A stretch of 64,000 bases of DNA from Octopus sinensis. Lineage: Eukaryota. Of this stretch, positions 1,103-37,210 are shown piece by piece (position 1 is the first letter of the stretch; each line of letters opens with the position of its first letter). A program made the position numbers and the translations under genes. Under the pieces are notes generated by a model. It was not told the origin of the DNA. It made no database searches and saw only the letters and a program-made list of their open reading frames with translations. The stretch spans positions 182,590,001 to 182,654,000 of the forward strand of contig NC_042998.1 of assembly GCF_006345805.1 (NCBI RefSeq), written 5' to 3'.

Positions 1103-1144
1103 CCTGCCAGCACGTGCTCCCCTAGGACTTGCAGCAGATTTACT
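1103..1144 (-). CDS. Array microexon 12 (42 nt, SKSAASPRGARAGR) of minus-strand coiled-coil gene; gene likely continues beyond window start
   Basis: Minus strand ...tttacAG|exon|GTaatt; phase 0/0, no stop; homologous to the other array units. Confidence 0.7.
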
Positions 1145-1806: not shown

Positions 1807-1842
1807 TTTGTCAGCATCCACGAGGTCATAATGGCTGATTTT
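1807..1842 (-). CDS. Array microexon 11, aberrant (36 nt KISHYDLVDADK if the shifted AG is used; otherwise a pseudo-exon)
   Basis: Donor GTaatt intact; the usual CAG acceptor reads CCG; next AG 2 nt inside gives a 36-nt in-frame exon. Confidence 0.4.
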
Positions 1843-1925
1843 CTCGGTAAACTAAATGAAAGCATATATATATATACACACACATATATATACATACATA
1901 CATACATACATATATATATGTAACA

Positions 1926-2926: not shown

Positions 2927-3003
2927 ATACACTTACACAATGGTATAGGAGGTTGGATAGTGCTTTTCAGTTCAAGACAAATTAAAACATCTTTAATAAT
3001 TAC

Positions 3004-3051
3004 CCTTTCAGAATCCTTGCTGTCATCTTTTGAACTTGTGGCAGATTTTTT
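3004..3051 (-). CDS. Array microexon 10 (KKSATSSKDDSKDSER)
   Basis: ttttacAG / GTaatt, 48 nt, phase 0/0, open. Confidence 0.8.
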
Positions 3052-3749
3052 CTGTAAAATAAAATGAAAGCATATATATTTACGATTCCATTAATATAGC
3101 AAAATATATTTCTTGATTTTAAATAATATGTTTAAATTGTTCCATATAGTGGTTTATACACTGTCAGACAGTTGTCTACTGGTCTCAGACATTTCGTAAT
3201 TCCTTGTATGTATCAATGACATAATTGGTACATATTGCACTGTGCATCGTTTTGTATAAAAAAACAGAATGGAAAGCTCAACATATCACCATTTGCATTT
3301 CAATAGAATGTTATTTATTACAAATGCAAAGTATATTATATAACATTATATAATTTTGCATTGTCACAGAGCCATACCATTTCATCAGATGATATTTAAC
3401 AACCATTCCATGAAAGATAATCAATCTATGGGTATAAAGATCTTTATCCTCATAGATTTGACTGTATTTTACACAGTATCACCTGAGGAGATGTTTTGGC
3501 TATGCAACAATGTGCAATTATATAATGTTATGTAATGTACTTTGCACTGGCAATAAAGATTCACAATGTTAAGATGTGTGTAATGATGTTTTGAACCATT
3601 CATTCAGTCTTCTTTACCATACACATGCACACATGTGCATGCACACATACACAAATATGCACAAACACGCACATACACTTACACAATGGTATAGGAGATT
3701 GAATAGTGCTTTTCAGTTCAAGACAAATTAAAACATCTTTAATAATTAC

Positions 3750-3797
3750 CTTTTGAGCATCCTTGAAGACATCTTTAGCTTTCCTGCCAGGTTTTTT
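3750..3797 (-). CDS. Array microexon 9 (KKPGRKAKDVFKDAQK)
   Basis: ttttacAG / GTaatt, 48 nt, open; visible inside ORF 3600..3821. Confidence 0.8.
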
Positions 3798-3892
3798 CTG
3801 TAAAATAAAATGAAAGCGCATATATTTACGATTCCATTAATATAGCAAATATATTTCTTGATTTTAAATAGTGCAACGTTTAAATTGTACTA

Positions 3893-4629: not shown

Positions 4630-4659
4630 CTTACTCAGTTGTGCTCCGGCAGATTTTTT
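4630..4659 (-). CDS. Array microexon 8 (30 nt, KKSAGAQLSK)
   Basis: ttttacAG / GTaatt; length is a multiple of 3. Confidence 0.72.
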
Positions 4660-5618: not shown

Positions 5619-5666
5619 CTTGTCAGCATCCTTTTGGTCATCTTTAGAACTTAAAGCAGATTTTTT
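5619..5666 (-). CDS. Array microexon 7 (KKSALSSKDDQKDADK)
   Basis: tatatAG / GTaatt, 48 nt, open. Confidence 0.78.
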
Positions 5667-6751: not shown

Positions 6752-6799
6752 CTTTTCAATGTCCACGGCATCATCTTTGACGCTAAAGGCAAATTTTCT
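6752..6799 (-). CDS. Array microexon 6 (RKFAFSVKDDAVDIEK)
   Basis: ttttacAG / GTaatt, 48 nt, open. Confidence 0.8.
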
Positions 6800-7752: not shown

Positions 7753-7800
7753 CTTATCAGGATCCAGACTATCATCTCTGGATTCTAAGGCAAATTGTTT
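7753..7800 (-). CDS. Array microexon 5 (KQFALESRDDSLDPDK)
   Basis: ttttacAG / GTaatt, 48 nt; inside ORF 7642..7920. Confidence 0.8.
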
Positions 7801-8519: not shown

Positions 8520-8854
8520 CCTGTCAGTATCCATGTGATGATCTTCTATTATGATAAAGGCAAAATTCTGTTTTTTGGGAGCCCTGTGTCTCAGTCCACA
8601 TTTGCTCTACTCTCTTTTACTCTTTTACTTGTTTCAGTCCTTTGACTGTGGCCATGCTGGAGCACCGCCTTTAGTCGAGCAAATCGACCCCAGGACTTAT
8701 TCTTTGTAAGCCCAGTACTTATTCTATTGTTCTCTTTTGCCGAACCGCTAAGTGACGGGGATGTAAACACACCAGCATCGGTTGTCAAGCAATGCTAGGG
8801 GGACAAACACAAACAAACACATACACACACACACACACCACACACACACACACA

Positions 8855-8921: not shown

Positions 8922-9550
8922 TACGACAGGCTTCTTTCAGTTTCCATCAACCAAATCCACTCACAAGGCATTGGTCGGCCCGGGGCTATAGCAGAAGACA
9001 CTTGCCTAAGATGCCACGCAGTGGGACTGAACCCGGAACCATGTGGTTGGTTAGCAAGCTACTTACCACACAGACACTCCTGCGCCTCTATAGAGACATA
9101 TACATTTTGGAATCAGGATGAAACAGGGATTGAAACTCTACCCTACATTCTTGAACATCCAGCAATTAAATCTGATTTAAAAGCATTTTATTTGCTTGTT
9201 GTAGCAGATATAGCATGGATGATGCACACCACTTTGACTGGCATTTGTGAGATGACGTCAGAGATGAAGTGGGCGATAAATTTTATGTCAAGAACTTTGG
9301 GACAAACTGGCCGATATTTGAAATTTAACTTGGGACGCAAATGATTGCATTACAGAATTAATTCTCATCAATCTTTAACCTCTGATCAAACACCACCGGG
9401 GCATATAGTTATTATAGACATATTATAGTCATGCTATTTAGCTCCCCTTAATTTTAGGTCACAAGCCCTATGAGCCCTCCATAGGACGGAATGCAAATAT
9501 CCACATGGTGTGTAGCTTTCAAGAGAGTTAGAAATAAAGGCAGATTTTCT
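8520..9550 (-). pseudogene. Array microexon 4, split by a ~980-bp insertion (reconstructed RKSAFISKDHHMDTDR)
   Basis: Joining 9528-9550 to 8520-8544 restores a 48-nt exon matching the array consensus; acceptor beside 9550, donor GTtata beside 8520. Confidence 0.65.
8608..9086 (-). mobile_element. SINE family A nested in the insertion that splits exon 4
   Basis: Near-identical to 3893-4287. Confidence 0.88.
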
Positions 9551-10186
9551 CTGTAAAACAAAAGGAAAACATATATTCATAATTCTATTAACATAGTAAA
9601 CAAATTTCTTGATTATAAATAGTACAACATTTAAACTGGTCAGTGAAGAGACCACACAGAGTCAGAGTGTTGATTACTGGTTTTAAGTATCTTGTATATA
9701 TCAATGGCATAACTGGTACATATTGCATGATTTTGTGTAGAAAAAGAGAATGGAAAGCTCAACATATCACCATATGCATTTCAATAGCATGATTATGAAT
9801 GCAAAGAACATTATATAACATTATATAAATCTGCATTGTTACATAACCATACCATTTCATCAGGTGATACTCAGCAATCACGCATTGAATACAATCAATC
9901 TTTGGGGATAAAGACCTTTATCTGCATAGAAATGTCGTGATTATGCCAGAATGGGAATTTACATAATGTTACATAATGTACTTTACATTGATAGGAATAA
10001 TCATACTGTTGAGATGTGTATAATGATGTTTTGACCTATACATTCAGGTACCTCTCTCTCTTTCTCTCTCTCTCTCACATACACACACATACATACACAT
10101 TCACACACACACAGACAATGGCATAGATGGTTGAATAGTTGCTTTTCAATCTAGGACAAGCAATTTAATATATCTGTAATAATTAC

Positions 10187-10234
10187 CCTTTCAGATTCAA
10201 GAAATTCATCTCTGGATTCTAAGGTAGATCTTCT
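10187..10234 (-). CDS. Array microexon 3 (RRSTLESRDEFLESER)
   Basis: ttttacAG / GTaatt, 48 nt; identical to the exon at 10872-10919. Confidence 0.78.
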
Positions 10235-10871
10235 CTGTAAAACAAAAGGAAAACATATATTCATAATTCTATTAACATAGTAAACAAATTTCTTGATTAT
10301 AATAGTACAACATTTAAACTGGTCAGTGAAGAGACCACACAGAGTCAGAGTGTTGATTACTGGTTTTAAGTATCTTGTATATATCAATGGCATAACTGGT
10401 ACATATTGCATGATTTTGTGTAGAAAAAGAGAATGGAAAGCTCAACATATCACCACATGCATTTCAATAGCATGATTATGAATGCAAAGAACATTATATA
10501 ACATTATATAAATCTGCATTGTTACATAACCATACCATTTCATCAGGTGATACTCAGCAATCACGCATTGAAATACAATCAATCTTTGGGGATAAAGACC
10601 TTTATCTGCATAGAAATGTCGTGATTATGCCAGAATGGGAATTTACATAATGTTACATAATGTACTTTACATTGATAGGAAATAATCATACTGTTGAGAT
10701 GTGTATAATGATGTTTTGACCTATACATTCAGGTACCTCTCTCTCTTTCTCTCTCTCTCTCACATACACACACATACATACACATTCACACACACACAGA
10801 CAATGGCATAGATGGTTGAATAGTTGCTTTTCAATCTAGGACAAGCAATTTAATATATCTGTAATAATTAC

Positions 10872-10919
10872 CCTTTCAGATTCAAGAAATTCATCTCTGG
10901 ATTCTAAGGTAGATCTTCT
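10872..10919 (-). CDS. Array microexon 2 (RRSTLESRDEFLESER)
   Basis: ttttacAG / GTaatt, 48 nt, open. Confidence 0.8.
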
Positions 10920-11615: not shown

Positions 11616-11663
11616 CCTGATAGAAGTTCTACTGGAATCTCTAGTAAGCATGGCAGCTTTTTT
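11616..11663 (-). CDS. Array microexon 1 (KKAAMLTRDSSRTSIR)
   Basis: ttttgcAG / GTaata, 48 nt, open; most diverged flanks. Confidence 0.78.
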
Positions 11664-12966: not shown

Positions 12967-15015
12967 TTCCACTCATCAATGTTACATACTCTTCCACTTC
13001 TGAAAGCAATCACAACAGCCAACCAAAAGTTTGTACACAAATTGCATAAAAAGTGTGGCACAAGGTAAACAAAATTCAAATATTATGTTTGGAGCAAACA
13101 TTGTCACAATCACACTCTTTGTATACATATTTCTGTTTCAACCCAGAAATGTTTTTACTTTAACTGCTGCACCTCAGTAACATATTAAATCCAAATATTT
13201 GAAAACATTTTGGTTTCTTTATATAAAATGAATGGAACCAACCTCATAAGCTTGTGCAAGCAAGCGCTGTTCATTTAAAGATTGTTTCAACTCAGAAATT
13301 CTTGTCTTTAACCGGTCCAACTCAGCAAGATACTAAATCAAAGTAGTTGAAAACATGTTGGTTTCTTCAGGTAAAACAAAATTTAATTAATTGCAACAAA
13401 CAACTGAAAAAACACAAGAGAAAATATGCAAACTAATGCAAAGCATATTACATACTCACACACATATAAGCATGTATGTATGTTGATATAGAGTAAAAGC
13501 CAAGATCTCTTGATTCTGAACTAGAATTTAGCTATTAATACCACTGGAATAAGGACAAATAAGACTTAGATCAATCTGAATAACTAAAGATGTACAATTT
13601 ATGAGTGGAATACTGCATTCATAGTTTTAATTCCAGTTCTTCTCAGAACTGTTTCAAAAGAGGTTAGACATTCAAAGTGGTAACTATTGTTTTATATTAG
13701 CCAAGAGATTCATTATTTGAAAGTTTCTTGTTCCTTGAGAAATATCAGTTAGTCAGAAAGCTGACTAAGAATGAAAGGAGAATGAAAGGATTTAGCTTAA
13801 AAAATTAAATTGCAAGTAGTCACAAAGAATGTGATGAAATAGTTAGAACTGTAGCATCAAGGCAAATTTATTATATGAATATGTAGCACAAATCAGAGAC
13901 CTTGATTTTTTTATGGCAAACAGAGCCAATAACTATAGCATATACAGCAAAAATCTACTGAACCCAACATACACATGAATTTGTGAAGAAATATCAAAAT
14001 GTCTTTTCATGATAGCCATCTATTCAGGCTCTGCTAAGTGAGACTGGAAAACAATAGCAACATCAACAATAACAATAGCTATCCTGTAAATATGCCTATA
14101 AGTACAAACATGGAAAGGCACAGGATTGCGTAGTTTAGAAGACTGCTTCACAATCATGTAATTTGGGGCTCGGTCCCATTGTGTAACACTTTGGGCAAGT
14201 GTCTTCTATTGTAGCATCAGGACAACCAATGCTTTGTGAGTGAATTTGGTAGACAGAAAATATAGGAAGTCGTGCCTGCATGTGTGTCTGTGTGAGTGTT
14301 AAATTCTCTGATGAGCTGAGCTATAGATAGTGTAATTTATTGACAAACAATACCATCTATAAATTATCCAGTAGCCCACCATTTTTGAAGAGAAATGGAA
14401 TGAAGATTTACTTTGAAAACAAACAAAGGTTAGCAATGGGAAAGGCATTTGGTTGTAAAACAATGCCTTAATAATATGCATTCATGTAATAATACTAGCA
14501 TGAAAAGATAGACGTAAAACAAATAAGCGAATATTATCATAAAAAGGAAGGGATAACTATTATCAGTTGAGTTGGATGAGGTAAATAAATAATGCACTTT
14601 GCTTGTATGTATAAAGCAATGCCACAAGTTGGTTTGAATTACTAACATTTTAGAGTTACAGCTCCTGTTAGACATCTTATGAAATTCTAGAATGGAACAA
14701 ACTTACATGCATGATGTGTTCCATATGTCAGTTATGGATACTGAAATAAGATAAGATAAATGTTATACTGAGATAATGGTGAACATCCCGCTATTAATGT
14801 CATATGGTTAAGTGATCTCATATTTAATGTAGAAAATACCAAATAAAGAGAAATATCATACATGAGTACTAATAACAAACTTCAAATATATGACTTATGG
14901 GTTAGTAGGAATATTTATTTATTTTGATTATGGTTACCATAATCAAAATGAATAAATAAATAAATAAATAAATAAATAAGAGAAACTGAAAATAAAAAAG
15001 AAAATGGTTATTTAC

Positions 15016-15090
15016 CTCTTCCTTCATAGTTTTAATTTTTAATGCAGCCACCCTGCTATGATCTACACTTGACCCCATTTTTTCAGATTT
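15016..15090 (-). CDS. Internal exon (KSEKMGSSVDHSRVAALKIKTMKEE)
   Basis: ttgttttAG / GTaaat, 75 nt, phase 0/0, open. Confidence 0.75.
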
Positions 15091-15339
15091 CTAAAACAAA
15101 AATTATTATTTTCAGAAGTGAAAAGCTAATTACTTTTCTGTAAATGGCATTGACAACCAATAAAATATATGCAAAAACTTACAGTCATCATATCAAATCT
15201 AATGTATGAATACCAAGGAAGATTTAATCCATCACATATTACCAAATGTGATTTATAAACTGGGGTATTTTATGTGGATTATATATTTTTGTATTATCTG
15301 GAGTATTTTATATAGATTAACCAATTATCACCTACTTAC

Positions 15340-15393
15340 CAACTTTTCATTTTCTTTGATGTAATTGTTCAACATTTTATTTCTAATTAACAT
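15340..15393 (-). CDS. Internal exon (MLIRNKMLNNYIKENEKL)
   Basis: cttacAG / GTaagt, 54 nt, phase 0/0. Confidence 0.78.
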
Positions 15394-15724
15394 CTGTAAG
15401 ATAACCAAAGAAATAAAATTGACAGAATGACTTAATAAGACATGAAACCTTTAAAGGAACAATATAAAATTGTGATGTTCTTGACTTTGATGCACATAAA
15501 TGAGGTGAAGGGATAATAATTTGAGTTAGAAACTGAAACCCAGACATAATTTGGTTTACTAAGATGTTAACACTTCATGCAACTTCATTTCCTTTCCCTA
15601 TAAATTTACAGATTTCTGTTAAGGTAACAAATATGACATTTGTTTGTATGTGATGGAATTTAAAGTTGTGGTACATTACTTTTCTTATAATAGCAATATT
15701 GGTTAAGAGTTTTTAATTGATCAT

Positions 15725-16345
15725 TATCATCATCATCGTTTAACGTCCACTTTCCATGCTAGCATGGGTTGGATGATTTAACTGAGGACTGGCGAACCAG
15801 ATGGCTGTGCCAGGCTCCAATCTAATCTGGCAGAGTTTCTACAGCTGGATGCCCTTCCCAACGCCAAACACTCCAAGAGAGTAGTGGGTGCTTTTAAAGT
15901 GCCACCGGCACGAGGGCCAGTCTGGTGGTACTGGCAACGACCACGCTCTAAAATGGTGTTTTTTACATGCCACCTGCACAGGAGTAACTCTAGCAGCACT
16001 GGCAACGACCTCGCTTGAATGTTTTGTTCACGTGCCACCAGCACAAGTGCCAGTGAGAGGACGCTGACAACGGTCATGCTCAAATGGTACTCTTTACGTG
16101 CCAGACAGCTGTTCTGGCAGTGATCCTGCTTGGATGGAGCTGTTAGCGCTCCACTGGGATGGGAACCAGTCATCGAATTTGGTTCAGTTTCGATTTCATT
16201 TGACCCAACAGGTCTTCGCAAGCAGAGTTTAGTGTCCAGGGAAGGAAAGTTGGCATGGGTGCCAGTCGATGAATTTGGTTCGATTTCGAATTCAATTTTG
16301 ATTTCGATTTTGATTTCACTTGCCTCAGCAGGTCCTCACAACATA
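15725..16345 (-). mobile_element. SINE/LINE-3' family C copy
   Basis: Same 3' end as 1926-2293, reversed. Confidence 0.65.
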
Positions 16346-16734
16346 AATGAATTGACAAACTCTCTTCTCTGATGAAATTCAGAGTTGTGGTATCCATTAC
16401 TTTTCCTGTAATATTGATTTAAATACATCAACCCAGTGCTCAACTGATACTTATTTTATTGACTCTGCAAGGATGAAAAGTTGACTTTGGTGAAAATTGA
16501 ACTCAGAGTGTAAAGATGGACGAAATGCTGCTAAGCATTCTGCCAGTTCACTGCCTGTACTTTTCCAGTAATATTAGCAATATTAAATGTTTTTATTGAT
16601 GTGTGAATAAATTAATGAATTCTTTTCTTTGCTAAATAGATGAATACAATATTTTCCCATCACAACAAATCAACATCCTAACAGATCACTTAAATCTATT
16701 AACTACAGTGTTTTAATAATGCGCACACATGCAC

Positions 16735-16771
<37 letters not shown>

Positions 16772-17065
16772 TGCACAAAGTCTCTGATGAAATTTCTTAG
16801 TTCATTATATAACTAAAAATACATGACAAATACTCAAGAGTGATATAATATTCCAACTTTCAACAGTCATTGACTTTCAACAAAGCTCAAACATAACCCA
16901 TAGTATCATTGTGTTCTCACATTTGGAACAGTACTGTTACTAAAGATACAAGCATTTTGGACCACAACAGTAGAAGGATATTTGACTAACTAGAAAATAC
17001 TCGCCTATACACTGCAGCTTCTAGCCCACAAATATTTTGTTCCTTCATTCTGTTTACAACAACTC

Positions 17066-17520
17066 ACCTGGCCTTCGTGCTGGTTGCACGTAAAAAGCAC
17101 CATCCGATCATGGCCATTGCCAGCCTCGCCTGGCCTCCGTGCCGGTGGCACATAAAAAGCACCATCCGATCATGGCCGTTGCCAGCCTCGCCTAGCCTCT
17201 GTGCCGGTGGCACATAAAATGCACTATCCGATCATGGCCGTTGCCAGCCTCGCCTGGCCTCCGTGCCGGTGGCACATAAAAAGCACCATCTGATCGTGGT
17301 CGTTTGCCAGCCTCGTCTGGCACCTGTGCCAGTGGAACGTAAAAAGCACCCACTACACTCATGGAGTGGTTGGCGTTAGGAAGGGCATCCAGCCATAGAA
17401 ACATTGCCAGATCTAACTGGGCCTGGTGCAGCCTTCTGGCTTCCCAGACCCCTGTTGAACCGTCCAACCCATGCCAGCATGGAAAGCGGATGATGATGAT
17501 GATGATGTTGATGATGATGA
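17066..17520 (+). mobile_element. SINE family C with ~62-bp internal tandem repeats
   Basis: Repeated caccatccgatcatggccgttgccagcctcgcc units, (GAT)n tail. Confidence 0.8.
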
Positions 17521-17971
17521 TTACAACAGCTTTTGTTCCTATAAATTAGTTAGTCACATATCAACACCATCTAACCCACCTGGTACATCCTCTCATCTTC
17601 CCCTCTTGTCACCTATCATTTAATTCTACCCATGTCATCCTCAGACTCCACAGGAACTACTTTGCCCATCATTACTTATGAGAACATCGACATAAACCAA
17701 TCAAAGATAATGATCCAAACAGTCTTAGAGGGTTTGTGAAGGTCATAATCACTGCACCTTTCTGCCTTGCTGAACCATTAAAAAATAACACATGCTTACA
17801 TGCACACAGACATATGCACATATGCAGACAAGGGTGCACTTACAAACACTTGCTTGAAGACACACATACAGTTGCTTGTACACACACATACACTCACATG
17901 TGCATGCAAATACATTCACATTCATGTATACATAGATATTCACACAAAAAGTATATTTATATAAGTATATA

Positions 17972-18142
17972 GGCACAGGAGTGGCTGTTTGGTAAGTAGC
18001 TTGTTTACCAACCACATGGTTCCGGGTTCAGTCCCACTGCGTGGCACTTTGGGCAAGTGTCTTCTACTATAGCGTCGGGCCGACCAAAGCCTTGTGAGTG
18101 GATTTGGTAGATGGAAACTGAAAGAAGCCCGTTGTATATATG

Positions 18143-18212
<70 letters not shown>

Positions 18213-18441
18213 GCGTGTGTGTGTTTGTGTGTCTGTGTTTGTCCCCCTAGTATTGCTTGACAACCGATGCTGGTGTGTTTATGTCCCCGTTACTTAATGG
18301 TTTGGCAAAAGAGACCGATAGAATAAGTACTGGGCTTACAAAAAGAATAAGTCCCGGGGTCGAGTTGCTCAACTAAAGGCGGTGCTCCAGCATGGCCGCA
18401 GTCAAATGACTGAAACAAGTAAAAGAGTAAAGAGTAAAGAG
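17972..18441 (+). mobile_element. SINE family A
   Basis: Full-length copy. Confidence 0.88.
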
Positions 18442-18542
18442 TATATGATTATACTATAATCTGTTTATATACTGAAATGGTTTGCTTAATATTAAGAAAA
18501 ATTATATGATTTTATGATATTGAAAAAGATACAGATACTAAC

Positions 18543-18613
18543 TTCTTGAGACATTTGTTTTGACTTCATTTTTTCTCTTACTAAATCTTGCTGAACTTTG
18601 TTCACTTTGATTC
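18543..18613 (-). CDS. Internal exon (xIKVNKVQQDLVREKMKSKQMSQE)
   Basis: Long pyrimidine tract + aAG / GTtagt, 71 nt, phase 1/0, compatible with neighbours. Confidence 0.75.
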
Positions 18614-18974
18614 CTTAAGAAAGAGAAGAAAAAATTTTAAACATTAAATTTTTTGCACAATACTTCAAAATGGAATCTTTATTATGATCAGGACAATCTT
18701 AAACAGAATGGGACAACACAGGACAAACAAAAAACAAAAATGTTATATGAGTTCATATGATATCATTTAAAAATTTACTAAAATATATTTTAAACACGAA
18801 TAATTTAACCTTAGGCTAGAACTTTCTTTTTTAAATGCATAAGAAAACAAAGCACAAAGTGTCCAAATATTTGAAGTTGTTGTTGCTACATATTTTACAT
18901 CTATTGTCTCCCCGGTCCTTCAGGGAAAATTCTGAATTATCCTCTGCTGTGAATTTTGGCCTCGTGAGATGGTC

Positions 18975-19201
18975 TTAACCCTTTTGTTACCAACCCAGCT
19001 GAAACCGGCTCTGGCTCTGAGTACAAAAGTTTTGTTTTCATAAATTTTGAATTAAAACTTTCACCAAACCTTAGTCACAAATTATGTTCCTAACACTAAC
19101 TAAATGATGACTATGTTATTTTACTAAATTCTTTGTTATATTTAAAGTAATTGAAAGAAACACAGAGCATCTCAAAAGAAATACAGTAACGAAAGGGTTA
19201 A
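18975..19201. mobile_element. TTAA-flanked MITE with CCCTTT termini (piggyBac-like)
   Basis: ttaacccttttgttac ... gtaacgaaagggttaa; inverted copy at 40725-40936. Confidence 0.8.
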
Positions 19202-19246
19202 AGATTTTTTGGTCAATGTTTACTTTTTTTTTTATGAGATATTCAC

Positions 19247-19324
19247 CAACCAGATTTATCATTTTGGGGCTTTGTGAAAATATTGGTAGCTTTGTTTTTA
19301 TAGTGTGGAATATGTCAATCACTC
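19247..19324 (-). CDS. Possible cassette exon (xVIDIFHTIKTKLPIFSQSPKMINLV)
   Basis: tttcAG / GTgaat, 78 nt, phase 1/1 and open in the required frame. Confidence 0.4.
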
Positions 19325-19643
19325 CTGAAATATGTGTATTGATAAATGAAATGAATTGTTGATCTTGGGTTTATATGCAAATTAGAGTTATGTGTTGCAG
19401 CATAGCACCTGTGAAAGAAAACTGAATCATAAATTAAAATCAGATCTAGTAATATAAACATTATCAGTCATGCATACATAGAGTATGTGTTTTTTTTTTA
19501 TACACACATTTGCTGTAGGATAGCATTCCGGGAAAAGCTTCTTACCTGATGCCAAGTGTTAAAAAACACTGAATGTTCCAGACCAGGTGAGACAACTCTT
19601 CAATTTATTTTTCCCCACTGTAACACTGCAACACATCACTCTA

Positions 19644-20450
19644 TCTCTCTATATATAAACGGCAGTTTGTCTGTATGTGTGTCTGTGTGTCTGTCAGGTT
19701 GTACCCTCACCCTGACCACGGCTTTCAACCGATTCTGATGAAACTTGACACACACATAGCCCAATGTCATAATTCCAAACTAACGCAGCGAAAATTTTGA
19801 AAATTCCCCCAGTTCTGAAAAAAAATCGATAAATTCGACATGGGTCGAGAATCTAAGCTTCTTATATGCAACACATTTTCTACAGACTGTCTAGGGGACG
19901 CAACTCGACCTTTTTAACTCTCGGAACATGTGGGGTAAGTATCCCAAAATGTATAAAAATGTACAAAAATGGCAAAAAAGCGGGCAGCAATGTGAGTGAC
20001 AACAATGAAAAAGTCAAAAGTGACCAAACTGAACAAACGAATGGAAAAGGTTTTTTTGGTGCAGATGACAAAAGCACTTTATAATAAACCAAGAGTTTGC
20101 AAGTAGCGTCCGAAGACCCTTAGGGTACGTCAAAAATTTAAGGTAAAACGTTTGGGGTGGTAGTTATAAAGAAAGTGTAAACAAAAAAAGTATTCAAATA
20201 ACTTGCGGCTGCAGCAGCTATTAGCAGAAGTGGCAGTGTTGGGAGTAAAGTCTCGAATGTAATTTCTTCCTGGTAGGAATTGGTTGGGTTGAATTATCGA
20301 TAGCTGTTTGATAGTTATTTGGGAGTGAAGAGAAGACATTGCAACCTACACATGCACCTTCGTTCCCTAGGGGGAAAGGACTAGATTGGGATTAGTCGTT
20401 GCCTACTAGGGGCTCTTACATACCCGGGCAACGCTAGGCTATGCTGCTAG
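19644..20450 (+). mobile_element. Non-autonomous Helitron
   Basis: TC(TA)n start, GTCT microsatellite, subterminal hairpin ccgggcaacgctagg, CTAG|T end. Confidence 0.75.
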
Positions 20451-20964
20451 TTTGTATATAAGTCCCAGACCAGCAATTCACTTTGTTTCAAGGTAAATGA
20501 TATTGATAAACTATAATAATGGTAAAATATCAATATCTACCATTCTTGCTCTGGGACATTCGGTATTTGTTTGTTTTTTTGTGTAGTGAGCTTTCCCTAG
20601 ATACTATTCCACAACAAATGGGTATAAGTAAAATGCAAACACCATGTATGTGCAACCAATAAAGTTTATTTATTTATAAATTTATTTTTTAACTTGTTTC
20701 AGTCATTTGACTGTGGTCATGCTGGAGCACCACTTTGAAGTGTTTTTGTAGAACAATTCAACCCCAAGACTTTATTTTAAAGCCTATTACTTATTTTATC
20801 AGTCTCCTTTTTCCAAACCACTAGGTATATAAACACACCAACACCAGTTGTCAAGTGATGATGGGTGGGTAGGACAAACACAGACACAAAGACACACACA
20901 TAGATATACATACATACATATATACATACAAACATATATATATATATACATACATACATATATA

Positions 20965-21171
20965 TATACTTAATAATTAAGGTTCAGCAAAGATTTGCTT
21001 TACCACATACCGAAGTTTAGAAATAGCAGCCAAAAACCTTAGCTATTTCTTCTACTTTAAAAAGGGACTCCTTTCTGGGAGTCCAAGAAATAGCTAAGGC
21101 TTTTGGCTGCTATTTCTAAACTTTGGTATGTGGTAAAGCAAATCTTTGCTGAACCCTAATTATTAAGTATA
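20965..21171. repeat. Near-perfect inverted repeat, 87-bp arms, 33-bp spacer
   Basis: 20965-21051 is the reverse complement of 21085-21171 with few mismatches. Confidence 0.9.
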
Positions 21172-22027
21172 CTTAAGTTTACCATGAAATGGTCCTTTTT
21201 TCATGCCGAATTCTACTTGGTGAAATTATGGATTACTTCTTAATTAATAATATTTCCTTTTTTGTCTTTGGCATCCTCAATTATATGATGTCCCATTTCA
21301 TTGCCTTTTTAACTCCATTATTTATTAATTTTAAGGAGTAATTCCAACATTATAAGGGAAAGGCACTCGCACTTTGCGGGACATTTCTGGCAAACTAAAT
21401 AAGAGCTGGAAAGTAACCTACTGCTATAGATACCAAAGCAGGGCCATACTTGAGCTAGTTATCCAGACACAACATATGTAGATCAACTCACTAGAGAAAC
21501 TGGATGCCTCCCCGAAGGCCTTACTCAACTAATGTAGGCCTGATATGGATGCTGTATGGGGGTTAAAAATGCCCAAGCAAGCTCAACCAAATAATGGCGA
21601 TCAGAAAACCTTTAAGTTCATTCAGTTGAATTTGACATATTTTTGGGTCAGCCACTGTTACACAAATATTTCTTGCCATACTAAGTGCAATGTTTTGTTT
21701 GATGTGTAAAGGATGGCAAGAACAGAAGTTCAAATATTGGTATGTGTTTGTTTTTTGCAAATACTGACAGGACACAGATAGTGTGTCTATGGCCAGCTGG
21801 AGGAGTGTGTCCTCCTGGGGCTAAAAACTACAGTAGCATCCACCCTTAGGGGTCAGCCATATTGAAATGGCAAAAATACGTCACGATGTGTTACCGCTAC
21901 TGTATATAACTCACTTTGATATTTATCATTGTTTGATTTCACTTTTTCAATATCAGCGACAGTGGGCGCTGGAAAAAGTATAAGTATTTGTGAAGGAAAT
22001 CTAATTCTCGGCGACAACTATGATTGT

Positions 22028-22072
22028 CACACGCTGACGAGAGGTCAATACCTCGAAACTCGAGTCCGTGTG
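22028..22072 (+). ncRNA. Type I hammerhead ribozyme (minimal), copy 1
   Basis: cacacg CTGACGA gaggt caat acctc GAAA c tcga GTC cgtgtg: all core nucleotides and three stems present. Confidence 0.88.
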
Positions 22073-22380
22073 TATCATAAGTTGAAGACGGGAAGGATGA
22101 CTTCCCTTTGCAAATACTGACAGGACACAGATAGTGTGTCTATGGCCAGCTGGAGGAGTGTGTCCTCCTGGGGCTAAAAACTACAGTAGCATCCACCCTT
22201 AGGGGCTAGCCATATTGAAATGGCAAAAATACGTCACGATGTGTTACCGCTACTGTATATAACTCACTTTGATATTTATCATTGTTTGATTTCACTCTTT
22301 CAATATCAGCGACAGTGGGCGCTGGAAAAAGTATAAGTATTTGTGAAGGAAATCTAATTCTCGGCGACAACTATGATTGT

Positions 22381-22425
22381 CACACGCTGACGAGAGGTCA
22401 ATACCTCGAAACTCAAGTCCGTGTG
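22381..22425 (+). ncRNA. Type I hammerhead ribozyme, copy 2
   Basis: Same motif; loop 3 is tcaa instead of tcga. Confidence 0.82.
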
Positions 22426-22635
22426 TATCATAAGTTGAAGACGGGAAGGATGACTTCCCTTTGCAAATACTGACACGACACAGATAGTGTGTCTATGGCC
22501 AGCTGGAGGAGTGTGTCCTCCTGGGGCTAAAAACTACAGTAGCATCCACCCTTAGGGGCTAGCCATATTGAAATGGCAAAAATACGTCACGATGTGTTAC
22601 CGCTACTGTATATAACTCACTTTGATATTTATCAT

Positions 22636-22670
22636 TATATATATATACATATATATAGATAGATAGATAT

Positions 22671-22740
<70 letters not shown>
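22636..22740. repeat. (TA)n/(GATA)n microsatellite
   Basis: Direct reading. Confidence 0.95.
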
Positions 22741-22741
<1 letters not shown>

Positions 22742-22748
22742 TGTATAT

Positions 22749-23555
22749 ACATGGAGCGATGGGTAAATTGTCACCATTTTATATTTTAAATTTCATGCAT
22801 GTGCATTGTTTGTTTTTGATTTTGCCAACTACACAGTATAGTAGGGTCAGTTGGACACCATCCGTGAGAAAAATAGCACCATGACACAATTCACTCTGCC
22901 AGAAATTTGGAAACAACATGCTGTATGGCTTGGCATTCATGCCGGAGGCTCCAATACTAACATCATAGTGTTTGGAGGGATCACTAGTGATGGTGACGTT
23001 ATGCTTCTATTCATCATCCTAAATGGCCTCAGACTCAACATTAGGATCCTATATCAAGTGCTTGGAGAAGATAGTGCTGCCTTGGGTCAAGAAGATGGTT
23101 TCTGGAAGACCCTATGTCTAGCAACAGAACTCGGCATCATGCCACACAAGCAAAAGAACCCAGTCATAGCTGTCAGACATTTTCTGCAACCACATCACTC
23201 CTAACATCAGGCCACCCAACTCCCCAGACTGCAACCTCCTTCATTATTGTGTATGAGGTGCAGTTGAGCGAGAGACCAGCAAAACTCCTTTTGACACCAA
23301 AGATGAACTGAAGGCACAGATTATGGCAGCATTCACCAACTTAAACAAGGAGACCGCCTAGAAGAGTTGCTGGAGATTCTGGAGGTGTCTGGAGGCTGTG
23401 GTTGAAGCCAATGACAATTTTACTCAATAAATTTACTCTTTAGTATTTCAAGATATTTTTATGTAATTTTGGTAAATATATCTGTTAAAATGAGATGTCA
23501 GTGTTATTTTCATTTTTGCATAATTTAGACTACATTTTATTCACCATACACTGTA
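22749..23555 (+). mobile_element. Decayed Tc1/mariner-superfamily transposon
   Basis: Degenerate TIRs; frameshifted VFGGITSDG, QQNSASCHTS and PPNSPDCN motifs. Confidence 0.7.
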
Positions 23556-23564
23556 TGTATATAT

Positions 23565-23647
<83 letters not shown>

Positions 23648-23650
<3 letters not shown>

Positions 23651-23880
23651 TCATCATCATCGTTCAACGTCCGTTTTCCATGCTAGCATGGGTTGGACGG
23701 TTTGACTAGGGTCTGGGAAGCCAGGAGACTGCACCAGGCTCCAGTCTGATCTGGCAGTGTTTCTACAGCTGGATGCCTTTCCTAATGCCAACCACTCTGT
23801 GAGTGTAGCAGGTGCTTTTTACGTGCCAGGGGAGGCTGGCAACGGCCACGATTGGTTGGTGCTTTTTATGTGCCACCAGC
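23648..23880 (-). mobile_element. SINE family C 3' part between (TA)n tracts
   Basis: Same 3' end as other family C copies. Confidence 0.75.
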
Positions 23881-23881
23881 A

Positions 23882-23935
<54 letters not shown>

Positions 23936-24162
23936 TGAGTAAGTCCAATGAATAAGACTGGTGGCATTTGTTCATGCAATTTGGTTTCATACTCGCATAA
24001 TTAATGTTTGTCAATGACATGAAACATGAGTATCTTTTATAAAGCATTAATATTAACTGTTTTCTGAGTTCCTTTTACGTATGTATGTATGTATGTATGT
24101 ATGTACGTATGTATGTATGTATGTATGTATGTATGTACGTATGTATGTATGTATGTACATGT

Positions 24163-24495
24163 GAAGGCACATGGCTCAGTGGTTAGAGCATCGAGCTTAC
24201 GATCGTGAGGTTGTGAGCTCGAATCCCGGACCGGGCTGCGTGTTGTGTTCTTGAGCAAGGCACTTTATTTCACGTTGCTTCAGTTCACTCATCGGTAGAA
24301 ATGAGTTGCGACGTCACTGGTGCCAAGCTGTATCAGCCTTTGCCTTTCCCTCGGATAACACTGGTGGCGTGGAGAGGGGAGGCTGGTATGCATGGGCGAC
24401 TGCTGGTCTTCCATAAACAACCTCGCCCGGACTTGTCTAGGAGGGTAACTTTCTAGGTGCAATCCCATGGTCTGTGTCGTGACCGAAGGGGGTCT
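24163..24495 (+). mobile_element. tRNA-derived SINE (distinct family)
   Basis: tggctcagtggttagagc A box, gctcgaatccc B box, cttgagcaaggcactt core. Confidence 0.75.
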
Positions 24496-24679
24496 CCGAA
24501 TCTCTGAATGTATGTATGGATGGATGTGTGTGTGTTTATTGCTAGATTTAAAACGTTTATTTTAAAAAGCATGTATAATTAAAGAAACTTAAAATATAAG
24601 CATTTATTTAATTAGGAAACTCATAACAAAAATGTTAAAGGCAAAGAAAATATCCCAGTGATTACTAATTAAACCTTAC

Positions 24680-24767
24680 TTAAATTAATTGATTCCATAG
24701 GTGCGTCATCATTAAGATCTTCCAAATCCAAGTCCATGTCTTCTGATGAAAAGTGATATGGGTCTTT
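24680..24767 (-). CDS. Internal acidic exon (KDPYHFSSEDMDLDLEDLNDDAPMESINL)
   Basis: ttgtAG / GTaagg, 88 nt, phase 0/1. Confidence 0.75.
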
Positions 24768-25310
24768 CTACAATGTAGAAGAAATATACTTGTATATACA
24801 TAAAATACTCTCTCTCACACACACACACATATATATATGAACAGAAAGAGAGAGAAATAGATCCTTTTGGGTTTTTAGTGGAACCATGCACACACCCACA
24901 CAGACAGATAGACGCACACACACACACACAAACACACACGCATGCGCACACATGCATGTGCACACACATACACACACAAACATAAATGTTTTGTGTTGTC
25001 AAAATATTTTTTATATATTATCTCATTTTGACAGCACAAAATATAGCGCGTGTGTGTATGTGTGTGTGTGTGTATGTGTGTGCACCTATGGGAATACATT
25101 TGTGTGAGCTGTAATAAGGCATGTTTATAGAATGCTACACTACCCTTGACCCGCTGGGTCACAGACAGTTCAACTTATAAAACATTGAAGCTGATTTCAA
25201 CGTTGCATTGAAATGAAAGCTAATTTAATGATGATTCAATTAAATATTTCAATTCATTCAATGTTTTCATAGGTCTGTTTACAAATTCATGTTTAAGGTT
25301 TTATTGATTA

Positions 25311-25708
25311 CTAGCAGTATCGCCCGGCGTTGCTCGGGTTTGTAAGGGAAATAACTATATAAGCATTTTTAGAGAGTTATAGCAAAAAATAGCAAAAAAT
25401 GCATTAAAAATGGAAAAAAAATGATGGTAAATTTTTTTTTAAATCGTTGACTCATCGTAGACATTTTTAGAGAGTTACTTCCCCTATATAATAGCGAAAA
25501 AAATGCATTAAAATGGGAAAAAAATGATGGTAAATTTTTTTTTAAATCGTAGACTCATCGTAGACGCGCGCTAATACCCAGAAGGGCTCGATATGAATCA
25601 CGACTATAAGATACCCGCTTTTGGTTACACTGCACCGCAAAATGTGGGAGTAATTAGGAATCTAAATCGTAGGAGACAGACACACAACTTGACTTTTATA
25701 TATAAAGA
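25311..25708 (-). mobile_element. Non-autonomous Helitron
   Basis: Minus strand A|TC...cccgagcaacgccggg hairpin...CTAG|T, with an internal tandem duplication. Confidence 0.85.
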
Positions 25709-26943
25709 TTTACAGCATCTAATAGAAATAGAACTTCCAGGATAAACTTAAATTCCAGTAATAGTATTTATCTATGGCATATGTGCATACTTCTACAAGA
25801 ATGCAAAAGGAATTCTTATATAACATAAACAGAAAACGAATGGAAACAATTTTCACAGTATTATATATTCCCATTTCAGGGTTCTGTTACTTTCGGGGTA
25901 TTTCCCCATTATGCACCGTTTTGGCTATTTATGAAGGTACCACAAAAAGCTGTGTATCTCAAGAATCCATGGTCTGATTTACATGAAACTTGATTTATTC
26001 TATTTGTATTCACATTTCAGGGGTACCTTACTTTCAGAGTATTTTCCCATTATGAACCAGTTTGGTTGTATTAAATTACAGACAAACATGCATGCAAGCA
26101 GGCAAGCAATCACAGAGTTTTAGTAGTACCCCACAAAAACATGTACCTCACGAATCCATGGTCTGATTAACACGAAACTTGTTTTATTCCATTTGTATTC
26201 ACATTTCAGGGGTACCTTACTTTAAGAGTATTTTCCCATTATATTCTGGTTTCAGTCATTGGACTGCAGGCAAACTGAAGCATTGCTTTCAGGAATTTTA
26301 GCTGTGGGACTGAACGTGGAACCATGTGGTTGGGAAACATGCTTCTTACCACACAGTCATGCATGCATTATGTTTCAGTATTGTTGTAAACACTAGTGGA
26401 ACTGTGAATATTTCACAGAATTAACTTATTTCTGAAAACTTTATCAAAAAAACCTGAAAGCATAGTCTGTGTTGTGTCTGTATCAAAAGATAGTTGCTCA
26501 TCTGCTAATCATGGAAAAGTGAAGAAAATTGGAATATGAAGATTACTTAATGCACTTTATATATACATTTTATATACTTTATGTACAATTTTATAGCCTT
26601 AATACACAACACTCTCCTCTTTCTCTCTCACTCTTTGCCTTAGCATCTTTTTTGCTCTCCTTTTTCTTTCTTTCTTTGCCTTTCCCTTCAACTAATTGCA
26701 TGAAATTGTTACAGATGGGCTAAGTAATAGAGTAAAAAAACTTTTGTTCAAAATAAAAAGAAATTCCAAATGTCACTCACCACAACCTCTCCCTTTCCCT
26801 ATCTCTGTTCCCTCACCATCCCCCCATAAAATAAAATAAATTGTTGTTAAATAAGAATATCCAATGGTAAAATAAATTTTTATCATAGTATATTTCTCTA
26901 TTTATAATTATATATAAGTATTTACATCTATAATATAAAATCT

Positions 26944-27724
26944 TTTTACATACAAAATTTAAAGGACTGAACACGAAAAGTGGACAGTCAACATGCTAGA
27001 TATAGACGTCAAATCGCTATTTTCCACAAAGAGTATGTTCTCAAATAACAGACAAACATGCATGTTGACTGTCCAATTTTCGTGTTCAGTCCTTTAAATT
27101 TTGTATGTAAAAATATTTTAATCTTCGGATTCTTTTTAATATGCTGGGCCACTGGTTTTAATTAACTAATATCAATTTCTACCCTTATTAAATTTTATAT
27201 TAAATAAATATGTTCTCTAACCGGTAAATTGACTGCTGCTACTTATTAGCTGCAGGATGGTTTTTCCGGTCTCAGCACGCCAAAGTGAAGTCATTTGAAA
27301 AATACATTCAAATATAATCGGTTGAACTCCATGTATGCGAGACTCCGGTCAATCGTTTTTGCATCTAGTCCAGTAAATTGTATTTTATATAACAGACCAT
27401 GCTGACGAGATTACAGTTTATCCTTGCAGATAATAATAATCGAAACTGATTCAGTACATGGGTAATTATTTTTATTTCGTATATTTTCATTTGTCTTGCT
27501 TATTTTTAATGCTTTGGTTTTGTGCTGAGTTTTTATTTGAGAACATACTCTTTGTGGAAAATAGCGATTTGACGTCTATATCTAGCATGTTGACTGTCCA
27601 CTTTTCGTGTTCAGTCCTTTAAATTTTGTATGTAAAAATATTTTAATCTTCGGATTCTTTTTAATATGCTGGGCCACTGGTTTTAATTGACTAATATCAA
27701 TTTCTACCCTTATTAAATTTTATA
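26944..27724 (+). mobile_element. Penelope-like remnant: inverted plus tandem pLTR arrangement
   Basis: 26944-27048 is the reverse complement of 27533-27637; 27061-27199 repeats at 27586-27724; contains a hammerhead. Confidence 0.72.
27397..27461 (+). ncRNA. Type I hammerhead ribozyme with GUA cleavage triplet
   Basis: ccatg CTGACGA gatta..taatc GAAA ctg att cag TA catgg. Confidence 0.8.
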
Positions 27725-28569
27725 TAATATAAAATCCGTTCTGTCTGTCTGTGTATTTTTTAGGATCTTGGGCATCCTCCATCTGATTGCGCTCAAATTT
27801 GATACAGGGCGTATATAAGTCTTGAAAAAATTACAAAAATCTATTCCAGGTGAGAATGCGATCTATAAAGCTGTGGGAATGTGCATTTATACATGCAAGT
27901 ACATCAGCTGTTGTGATTGATACTATGCGTATGCGAGAAAAATGCACGTGCAGTTTGCGCAAAAAAAGCTGACTGGCTTGAAATAATACCACAAAATGGG
28001 ATGGTTGGACAAGTTGTTTTGAGAAAATTTGGTTTAAATGTTTGACAACTCAGCACCATCCATTGGACGGGGGTGGGGTGGCGTTTTGCTTGTATATATA
28101 AACACACACACATACGCAAACATACATATATAATATATATGTGTGTGCAAGCACATGTGTGTGTGTGTGTCTGCCTTTGTGATGGTTTGGTGACACCCCG
28201 ATAACTTAGCAATTTGGCAAAACAGACCAATAGAATAAGTACTAGGCTCTAAAATAAATATCGGGGTCAATTTGTTCGATTAAACATTTCAAGGGTGGTG
28301 TCCCAGCATGGCTGTGATATAAGTGCTTGTGCGTGCATGTGTGTGTGTTTGTATGTGCGTGTGTGTGTCTGTGTGTGTGCGTGTGTGTGTATGTTTCTTG
28401 CTCTTCTAAGTTTTCTTTCACTTATCTCTCTAAAGCATCACTACTTCTCAAATGTACCGCCTCTCTATTTCCCACCTTCTCATTTTAAAACCTCTCTCTC
28501 TCATCTAGTATCCAACTCATTTCTCTCTCGTTCTCTCTCTCATCTAGTATCCAACTCATTTCTCTCTCG

Positions 28570-28602
<33 letters not shown>

Positions 28603-28715
28603 ACTTTCCCAATCTATTAATCCCTCTCCTCTATTGTATTTCTGTCTGTATCTCTCCTTTGGTTTGTTGCCCTCCCCACCACCCAAAGAACTATGATAAT
28701 ATTAGCTGTTCAAAA

Positions 28716-28946
28716 GGCGGCGAGCTGGCAGAAACGTTAGCATGCCGGGCGAAATGCTCAGCGGTATTTCGTCTGCCGTTACGTTCTGAGTTCAAATTCC
28801 GCCGAGGTCGACTTTACCTTTCATCCTTTCGGGGTCGATTAAATAAGTACCATTTACGCACTGGGGTCAATGTAATCGACTTAATCCATTTGTTTGTCCT
28901 TGTTTGTCCCCTCTGTGTTTAGCCCCTTGTGGGTACTAAAGAAATA
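28716..28946 (+). mobile_element. SINE family B
   Basis: Full-length copy. Confidence 0.85.
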
Positions 28947-29074
28947 GATAATATTAGCTGTACAACAAAAGACATAGTCTGCATCCCATAACTCACACAG
29001 AAGAAGAAACAGCAAAATAAATGAATGAAAACAAAAGGAATTTTTTTTCTTATCCTTGTCATTATATGTTTTAC

Positions 29075-29221
29075 CTGTGACTCAATGACTATTGGCATGC
29101 TACATCCATCCAACATGCTTTCATATTCACTCATGCACTGTTCTAGATGTTTAACCCTTTTCAACAAGAGCAGCTTCTCCTTCTTATCAACTTCTCTATT
29201 TCTTTGTTTGCTTCTTTCTTT
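29075..29221 (-). CDS. Internal exon (KERSKQRNREVDKKEK...MPIVIESQ)
   Basis: tttacAG / GTaaaa, 147 nt, phase 0/0; within ORF 28919..29275. Confidence 0.82.
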
Positions 29222-30562: not shown

Positions 30563-30596
<34 letters not shown>

Positions 30597-30743
30597 ATGT
30601 GTCTGTGTTGTGAGTATTTGAGTGTGTCTGATTACCTTTATTTATTTAATTATCTTGTGTAATTTTTTTAAAACAAAAAAAAAGAAATTTTGAAACATAT
30701 CTCTGACTGACATAATATTTGGTCTTAAAGCTAAGTTCTTTAC

Positions 30744-30818
30744 CTCAAAATCTGCTTTCAACATTATTAGAGCATCTTGCATTTGTTGTCGACAGGATAA
30801 TCGAATATTATTTAATTT
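30744..30818 (-). CDS. Internal exon (KLNNIRLSCRQQMQDALIMLKADFE)
   Basis: tgtctAG / GTaaag, 75 nt, phase 0/0, coiled-coil-like. Confidence 0.82.
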
Positions 30819-31356: not shown

Positions 31357-31601
31357 GCGGCGAGCTGGCAGAATCGTTAGCATGCCGAGCGAATTGCTTT
31401 GCAGTATTTCGTCCGCCGCTGTGTTCTGAGTTCAAATTCCACCGAGGTCGACTTTGCCTTTCATCCTTTCGGGGTCGATAAATTAAGTACCAGTTATGCA
31501 CTGGGGTCGATGTAATCGATTTAATCCATTTGTCTGTCCTTGTTTGTCCCCCCTGTGTGTAGTAAAGAAATAGGTATGTACCTTGTGGGTAGTAAAGAAA
31601 T
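31357..31601 (+). mobile_element. SINE family B
   Basis: Full-length copy with duplicated tail. Confidence 0.85.

Positions 31602-37167: not shown

Positions 37168-37210
<43 letters not shown>

What the first reader, a model, noticed from the sequence alone, without database searches (positions are those of the whole stretch)
2933..3870. Array exons diverge far faster than their introns, almost only at non-synonymous sites
Seen (hand count): exons 3004-3051 and 3750-3797 differ at 14/48 nt, and all 10 differing codons change the amino acid. The adjacent intron differs at only 2/71 nt (2933-3003 vs 3679-3749) and about 4/76 nt on the other side. Exons 7753-7800 and 10187-10234 differ at 13/48 nt with a single synonymous change, against 3/72 in the flank. 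Established: conserved introns around hypervariable exons are typical of diversifying selection, as in toxin and gamete-recognition genes. Inference: the paralogous microexons are being actively diversified. Alternatively, gene conversion or splicing-control elements keep the flanks homogeneous.
Basis: partly seen in the sequence, partly recalled or inferred. Interest (0 to 1): 0.85.

Follow-up and report, generated by a model that had tools for sequence, protein, structure and literature searches.

The report
Octopus microexons outrun their copied introns
An octopus gene of unknown function built its middle from dozens of copied tiny exons that now differ from each other two to twenty times more than the introns copied with them, partly because recombination swaps introns right up to the exon edges and likely also because selection favours different amino acids in each exon.

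Summary
The hand counts are right, and the effect is general. The exons belong to the octopus C10orf67-like (DUF4709) gene, whose predicted-disordered middle is encoded by 28 or more phase-0 microexons. Across eight 48-nt exons, mean divergence is 0.40 against 0.19-0.24 for flanks and intron bodies; amino-acid-changing sites ran about 2.8 times the intron rate (p about 1e-11). A second array in the same gene, outside the window, alternates two exon types 26-28% apart between 3-kb introns 0.9-1.8% apart, with recombination seams 13-43 nt from the exons; a third shows the same excess. Best reading: intron homogenisation plus likely diversifying selection; relaxed constraint on older exons is not excluded. 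It is not a toxin-like secreted protein. The scan noted similar cases in other octopus genes (TRPM seam, IL-17). Known kind (opsin-type divergence peak), new intragenic variant.

The parts
3004..3051 (-). 48-nt phase-0 exon of array 1 (P0001 aa 393-408); first exon of the finding
   Evidence: AG/GT borders; exact contig in run X18
3750..3797 (-). 48-nt phase-0 exon of array 1 (aa 377-392); sister unit of 3004-3051 (intron-tree support 100)
2933..3003 (-). Donor flank homogenised with 3679-3749 (2 of 71 differ, shared 4-nt deletion)
3052..3125 (-). Acceptor flank homogenised with 3798-3870
3310..3560 (.). Core of the intron body: decayed palindromic repeat (arms 22-31% apart) with dispersed copies on other contigs; present in each unit
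1103..1144 (-). 42-nt phase-0 exon of array 1 (aa 409-422)
1807..1844 (-). Degenerate unit: 38-nt exon remnant with altered acceptor; not in the P0001 model
4630..4659 (-). 30-nt phase-0 exon of array 1 (aa 367-376)
5619..5666 (-). 48-nt exon of array 1 (aa 351-366); 14 of 16 residues match an O. bimaculoides repeat
6752..6799 (-). 48-nt exon of array 1 (aa 335-350)
7753..7800 (-). 48-nt exon of array 1 (aa 319-334)
8521..8571 (-). Degenerate unit: exon remnant with altered donor, acceptor flank replaced; not in the model
9530..9550 (-). 5' remnant of an array exon with intact acceptor, donor side lost
9551..10919 (-). Very young 685-bp tandem duplication (exon plus downstream intron); exons 10187-10234 and 10872-10919 identical; seam within 19 nt around the acceptor site
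   Evidence: (0 of 48; 1 of 519)
11616..11663 (-). 48-nt first exon of array 1 (aa 287-302), most divergent unit
13243..40442 (-). Ten upstream coding exons (aa 1-286): DUF4709 domain and coiled-coil region of the host gene

Best explanation
The array is the exon-by-exon expanded, predicted-disordered middle of an octopus C10orf67-like protein, in which recombination between repeat units moves and evens out introns up to the exon edges while the exons stay different, likely because selection favours or preserves amino-acid differences between repeats. Steps shown: tandem duplication of exon+intron units; all exons phase 0; intron homogenisation with seams at exon borders; replacement sites 2.8 times the intron rate; no net purifying selection. 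Steps inferred: that part of the excess is positive selection rather than greater age of the exons; that the repeats act as a Ser/Lys/Asp-rich, probably phosphorylated spacer between two coiled-coil ends whose length and charge can be tuned by exon skipping; that the gene works in testis or sperm, where fast change is common.
For: Gene identity: P0001 holds the array exons, DUF4709 27.8 bits over a cut-off of 27, relatives named C10orf67 in two gastropods and a fish. Excess: 0.40 vs 0.19-0.24; all 11 acceptor-side 48-column windows 0.14-0.30; rN 2.78 (2.14-3.58), rS 1.53 (0.78-2.66); holds without the two edge units (rN 2.55, p=1e-7). Third positions of codons 3 and 14 are invariant in 8 of 8 exons while they encode 4 and 5 residues. 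Site model M2a over M1a p=0.008-0.069. Exon distance (0.40) exceeds even the distance from array introns to unlinked copies of the same repeat (0.315). Homogenisation: array 2 introns 22-45 differences in 2455 columns, each with private variants, exon types A and B 14-15 of 54 apart, at most 6 differences in any 54 intron columns of the 3 pairs scanned; old-type letters reach only 13-33 nt into one donor flank; 685-bp duplication seam at an acceptor site. Replicates: old flanks in array 2 differ 7-14% vs exons 20-33%; array 3 exons 16-27 of 57 vs upstream flank 11-12 of about 90. O. bimaculoides models X2 and X3 each lack one repeat.
Against: Omega within exons is not robustly above 1: 21 of 24 fits have p>0.05, and recombination can inflate site-model tests (established knowledge). 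Silent sites are also raised (1.5-1.9 times, reaching p<0.05 in 4 of 12 fits). A neutral exon whose genealogy is 1.75 times older than the intron tree reaches the observed value with p=0.059, 2 times older with p=0.28; the dispersed-copy ruler allows about 1.7 times, is biased low by taking best hits, and fails if the repeat spread among units later. Transversion excess in exons is not significant (p=0.15). No RNA read or contig joined two exons; expression and tissue are untested. No orthologous DNA beyond short pieces.
Confidence: 0.55

Rival explanations
1. No positive selection: the linker is unconstrained (omega about 1) and the exons are simply older than their introns, because unequal crossing-over and conversion keep replacing introns and stop at the divergent exons.
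For: Array 2 shows young introns placed between old exons; seam at an acceptor in array 1; pS close to pN; omega CI includes 1 in most fits; earlier scan note e1-9582443 reads an octopus TRPM case this way (unchecked).
Against: Needs exons at least 1.75 times older than introns over the whole of array 1, at the edge of what the dispersed repeat copies allow; silent-rate point estimate is well below the replacement rate in all 12 fits; why conversion should spare exactly the exon in three families needs selection at least at the start (inference).
Confidence: 0.3
2. One reading: pure diversifying selection after duplication, introns being an honest clock.
For: rN about 2.8 with rS compatible with 1; one replacement change and none in about 120 flank nt in the organism-D contig of the 3750 unit (one site only).
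Against: Flanks of 3004/3750 are far more alike than their bodies (p=2e-5); in array 2 it would need about 20 times the neutral rate including 1-2 silent changes where 0.16 are expected, and three identical A exons.
Confidence: 0.07
3. Introns are slowed by purifying selection (splicing elements for microexons, or an RNA hairpin from the palindromic repeat) and the exons show the true neutral rate.
For: In arrays 2 and 3 only the exon-near flanks of old units still align; each array-1 intron holds an inverted repeat.
Against: Array-1 flanks (0.19-0.24) are no more conserved than bodies (0.19-0.21); hairpin arms are 22-31% apart in the 5 long self-matches, more than paralogous introns, i.e. decaying; constraint cannot make one pair 97% alike while other pairs are 80% alike.
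Confidence: 0.05
4. Artefact or mutation hot spot: assembly polishing evened out the introns, or exons mutate faster (CpG decay).
For: The 685-bp duplicate is almost identical and could be an assembly or haplotype duplicate.
Against: Array-1 introns are 20% apart, array-2 introns each carry private variants; both units of the finding stand as separate contigs; exons hold 0-2 CpG and show no transition excess.
Confidence: 0.03

Closest known systems
Divergence peak under interlocus gene conversion: primate red/green opsin exon 5, colobine RNase1 (PMC3924837, passages read); Drosophila Pre28 (PMC2588116, passages read)
   Same: Paralogous introns homogenised, exon divergence high and confined to the exon; read as selection against conversion.
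   Different: Here the paralogues are microexons inside one gene, in three repeat families, in a low-complexity linker with no known functional site; the orthologue test used in those papers could not be run.
Argiope MaSp2 and flagelliform spidroin genes with iterated, homogenised introns (PMC9779670, passages read)
   Same: Repeat units delimited by near-identical introns within one gene; alternating higher-order structure.
   Different: In the spidroins the coding repeats are also homogenised and intron types alternate; here one intron type separates alternating, strongly divergent exon types.
Schistosome micro-exon genes, MEGs (PMC4350168, passages read)
   Same: Many very small symmetric exons, high dN/dS, scope for exon skipping.
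   Different: All MEG products carry a signal peptide and face the host; this protein has conserved coiled-coil ends and no signal-peptide-like start.
Accelerated exons in primate segmental duplications (PMC3906575, abstract and outline seen); venom genes with exons faster than introns (search listing only; details recalled)
   Same: Exon-versus-flanking-intron rate excess as the signal.
   Different: Those are whole-gene duplicates or secreted toxins; here omega is only borderline above 1 and intron homogenisation is shown.
C10orf67 / DUF4709 proteins (Pfam PF15821)
   Same: N-terminal DUF4709 and a conserved C-terminal motif.
   Different: Other molluscan members seen are 574-670 aa without these repeat families; the Argonauta fragments show no 16-residue repeats (partial models).

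Membership tests
C10orf67 / DUF4709 family | DUF4709 domain above Pfam cut-off | tested here: met
   27.8 bits vs cut-off 27, E=3.6e-6, aa 24-106; O. bimaculoides relatives 25-26 bits, just under
C10orf67 / DUF4709 family | C-terminal similarity to proteins named C10orf67 | tested here: met
   P0010, P0011, P0016 at E 1.9e-6 to 3.9e-4 among 21 hits; both ends align to P0010
C10orf67 / DUF4709 family | One-to-one orthology by tree or synteny | not tested
   No gene tree or synteny comparison was made
Selection-maintained divergence peak under gene conversion | Flanking non-coding DNA homogenised between paralogues | tested here: met
   Array 2 introns 0.9-1.8%; 3004/3750 flanks vs body p=2e-5
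Selection-maintained divergence peak under gene conversion | Divergence peak confined to the coding target | tested here: met
   14-15 of 54 in the exon, at most 6 of 54 in intron windows of 3 pairs
Selection-maintained divergence peak under gene conversion | Exons group by type across species while introns group by species; orthologous divergence flat across the peak | not testable with these tools
   No orthologous genomic DNA beyond short contig pieces
Selection-maintained divergence peak under gene conversion | Excess of replacement over silent differences in the peak | tested here: inconclusive
   omega 1.3-2.2, 3 of 24 fits p<0.05; site models p 0.008-0.069
Toxin / gamete-recognition genes under accelerated evolution | Secreted or surface protein with signal peptide | tested here: not met
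   P0001 and P0002 start with charged residues and no hydrophobic stretch (by inspection; no predictor run)
Toxin / gamete-recognition genes under accelerated evolution | Coding exons diverge faster than introns | tested here: met
Schistosome-type micro-exon genes | Coding region mostly in very small symmetric exons | tested here: inconclusive
   28 phase-0 exons of 27-57 nt encode aa 287-730 of 923; the ends have longer exons, some of other phase
Schistosome-type micro-exon genes | Signal peptide | tested here: not met
   by inspection
Schistosome-type micro-exon genes | Isoform pool by exon skipping | tested here: inconclusive
   Only annotation: two O. bimaculoides models each lack one repeat; no RNA joint seen

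The most novel reading that the evidence does not exclude
Octopuses turned the linker of a conserved, probably sperm-related coiled-coil protein into a combinatorial microexon cassette: recombination shuffles interchangeable introns to add, drop and reorder exons, while positive selection drives each 16-19-residue module apart and keeps an alternating A/B order, giving lineage-specific, splice-tunable disordered linkers under an evolutionary arms race.
Probability: 0.2. Interest if true: 0.75.

Novelty: new variant of a known kind. Interest (0 to 1): 0.48.

Why it matters
It is a clean, replicated intragenic example of exon and intron histories coming apart: three repeat families in one gene, one of them young enough to show the seams. 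It warns that exon-versus-flank comparisons in tandem arrays overstate selection (ten-fold becomes two- to three-fold), and it offers a compact test of whether disordered linkers can be under positive selection. It also gives the first handle on fast, lineage-specific change in a conserved gene of unknown function. No paper holding both 'octopus' and 'DUF4709' ranked (5 rows listed); the 25 of 47 'C10orf67' papers listed showed no cephalopod or repeat study by title.

Tried and rejected
Pfam family search of the whole genome with PF15821 found nothing, and nothing rang in its controls: uninformative for short exons. Two further homologue searches returned only P0001 (1 of 2838 candidates) and P0002 (1 of 2470), so no third octopus array sequence was found. 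Sequencing runs: no RNA holder on record; small shares are probably dispersed repeats. Reads could be laid only on 900-3600: the one possible RNA run covered intron and repeat pieces and joined no exons; runs X19 and X20 showed no contig of the 3004 exon, but cover was thin, so this proves nothing; orthologues of the exons beyond 3750 remain unexamined. ESM Atlas: no usable feature hit, all structure rows under the bar, model pLDDT 0.48. Unit B4 of array 2 has a 1-nt deletion, so its rows are out of register and were dropped from counts. Exon 10872 was left out of the 28-pair means as a duplicate of 10187; exons 1103 and 4630 (shorter) and three degenerate units were left out of codon fits. 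The first intron tree paired exon 10187 with an acceptor flank that belongs to another exon; redoing it changed little. Dibasic pairs at exon joints first suggested a neuropeptide precursor: rejected, no signal-peptide-like start and DUF4709 ends. A maintained intron hairpin: rejected. An X-box-like promoter scan with a recalled motif gave two weak matches: no weight. Supplement of the two-spot octopus population paper could not be read; it may list this gene among high dN/dS or MK hits.

Full report
What the region is. The finding lies in a minus-strand array of about 750-bp exon+intron units from just outside the window (G000:C2:182589211) to 11663. Eleven intact exons of 30-48 nt have AG/GT borders and one open frame, phase 0; three more units are degenerate. 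A search with an upstream exon returned P0001, a 923-aa protein labelled LOC118762221 of Octopus sinensis, and an O. bimaculoides relative. P0001 maps exon by exon over more than 140 kb; aa 287-730 come from 28 phase-0 exons of 27-57 nt. It carries DUF4709 just over the cut-off, and its relatives in gastropods and a fish are named C10orf67. The middle is 16% Ser, 14% Lys, 9% Asp, 9% Glu and the Atlas model has mean pLDDT 0.48, so I read it as a disordered linker between coiled-coil ends (inference). Identity to O. bimaculoides is 79-84% at the ends and 47-70% in the middle. Other molluscan members and the partial Argonauta models lack these repeats.

All four counts check out. Two things change their meaning. 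First, the flanks quoted are unusually alike: for 3004/3750 the similarity falls from 97% next to the exon to 87% and then 75% along the donor-side intron; 4 of 130 flank sites differ against 77 of 470 in the body (p=2e-5). For 7753/10187 the acceptor flank differs at 11 of 67. Second, only about 9 of 48 sites are silent; the first pair has 2 silent and 12 replacement changes, and over 28 pairs pS=0.37, pN=0.40.

The excess is nevertheless real. Over 28 pairs of eight 48-nt exons the mean distance is 0.395, against 0.24 (donor flank, 24 pairs), 0.19 (acceptor flank, 28), 0.21 and 0.19 (intron bodies, 21 and 20 pairs with enough aligned sequence). Tree length is 2.29 for exons and 0.89-1.01 for intron sets of the same eight units. 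A codon model on the intron tree gives a replacement rate 2.78 times (2.14-3.58) and a silent rate 1.53 times (0.78-2.66) the intron rate (similar, also without the edge units). None of 3000 neutral simulations reached the observed distance.

Is it selection or age? Within exons alone, omega is 1.3-2.2 with p<0.05 in 3 of 24 fits; a site model with a positively selected class is preferred at p=0.008-0.069 in 6 fits, a test that recombination can inflate. Third positions of two codons are invariant in 8 of 8 exons while the residue takes 4-5 states, though two other such codons vary. The intron body is an old palindromic repeat with dispersed copies; in 302 shared columns array copies differ by 0.207, array versus dispersed by 0.315, dispersed among themselves by 0.299 (9 introns, 8 of 15 fetched copies). 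If the repeat was in the founding unit, the exons can be at most about 1.7 times older than the intron tree suggests, and a neutral exon then reaches 0.395 with p near 0.05 (0.006 at 1.5 times, 0.059 at 1.75). So relaxed constraint plus age is disfavoured but not excluded.

Direct evidence that introns and exons have different histories. (a) In the window, the 685-bp duplication giving identical exons 10187 and 10872 has its seam within 19 nt around the acceptor site. (b) Outside the window the same gene has a second array: nine 54-nt exons in the order C, B', A, B, A, B, B(broken), A, D. The three A exons are identical, B exons differ by 2-5 nt, A and B by 14-15 of 54, of which 1-2 silent. 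The six 3-kb introns between them differ at 22-45 of 2455 columns whichever exon types they join, each has private variants, and only two acceptor-side letters travel with exon type. One A exon keeps old-type donor letters to +33 and then switches to the young intron; another keeps none beyond the splice site. A young intron was thus spread between older exons by exchanges that end at exon borders. Even against the old flanks of units C and D (7-14%) the exons differ by 20-33%. (c) A third family of three 57-nt exons differs at 16-27 of 57 against 11-12 of about 90 upstream; silent sites are raised there too.

How it most likely works. Phase-0 exons can be duplicated, lost or skipped without a frameshift (shown by the anatomy; O. 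bimaculoides models X2 and X3 each lack one repeat, annotation only). Unequal crossing-over and conversion between the similar introns expand the linker and even out the introns (shown). Exchanges that would overwrite an exon are either removed by selection or stall at the divergent exon (inferred), and replacement changes accumulate at no less than, probably above, the neutral rate (rate shown, cause inferred). This is the divergence-peak pattern described for opsin exon 5 and RNase1 (PMC3924837, passages) and Drosophila duplicates (PMC2588116, passages). For function I commit to a phosphorylatable spacer of tunable length and charge in a testis or sperm coiled-coil protein, at low odds (about 0.3): a table row in PMC10298883 (passage) lists human C10orf67 under testis, testis enrichment is otherwise recalled, PMC5094585 (passages) states that no function was known, and PMC13669787 (passages) reports sperm-motility terms among selected genes in an octopus. 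With the rate quoted there (2.4e-9 per generation), array-1 introns would be tens of millions and array-2 introns about 3 million generations old (rough).

Relatives' DNA. Run X18 holds both units of the finding as separate contigs. Run X20 (organism D; 6 differences in 798 intron-side letters over three pieces) holds a contig matching the 3750 unit with one further difference, a replacement change in the exon. One site; no weight beyond direction.

Verdict. Observation partly confirmed; interpretation partly supported. The mechanism class is known; the intragenic, thrice-repeated microexon form with visible seams and alternating exon types is a new variant. Earlier scan notes on octopus TRPM microexons (seam, no selection) and IL-17 twins (patchy selection) came to hand after these analyses, are unchecked, and suggest the pattern recurs in octopus genomes. 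Interest 0.48; 0.75 if orthologue and population tests confirm positive selection on a splice-tunable cassette.

Noticed in passing
G000:C2:182516458-182541077 (L015-L018): Array 2 of the same gene: nine 54-nt exons in order C, B', A, B, A, B, B (1-nt deletion), A, D; six 3-kb introns 0.9-1.8% apart; the P0001 model uses only 5 of the 9 exons.
   Followed up: yes
G000:C2:182564341-182575562 (L012-L013): Array 3: three paralogous 57-nt phase-0 exons; two are missing from P0001 but resemble O. bimaculoides P0026 residues, so the model is probably incomplete.
   Followed up: partly
G000:C2:182505617-182505673 (L019): A 57-nt exon 84 kb downstream still shares acceptor flank similarity (about 75%) with array 1, linking the repeat families by older duplications.
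   Followed up: partly
window 3310-3560 and each unit; L021-L035: Old palindromic, MITE-like dispersed repeat forms the intron body; at least 30 further copies on other contigs at 68-87% identity.
   Followed up: partly
window 32387-33533: Inverted pair of low-complexity A/T-rich tandem arrays (12/24/37/61-nt periods) flanked by 32-nt repeats, inside an intron; looks like a foldback or Helitron/MITE-type element.
   Followed up: no
window 21754-22636: 353-nt tandem repeat, 2.5 copies, 99% identical, inside an intron.
   Followed up: no
L011:1880-3200: Very A+T-rich stretch with a long inverted repeat that looks like a decayed mitochondrial insertion (impression by eye).
   Followed up: no
window 44432-44540, 50772-50862, 51090-51143, 52395-52410 (minus strand): Splice-site-bounded segments upstream of the annotated start and a CpG-rich stretch near 52530-52680; candidate 5' exons and promoter.
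   Followed up: no
window 62965-63335 (minus strand): Open frame resembling a retrotransposon endonuclease region (by eye).
   Followed up: no
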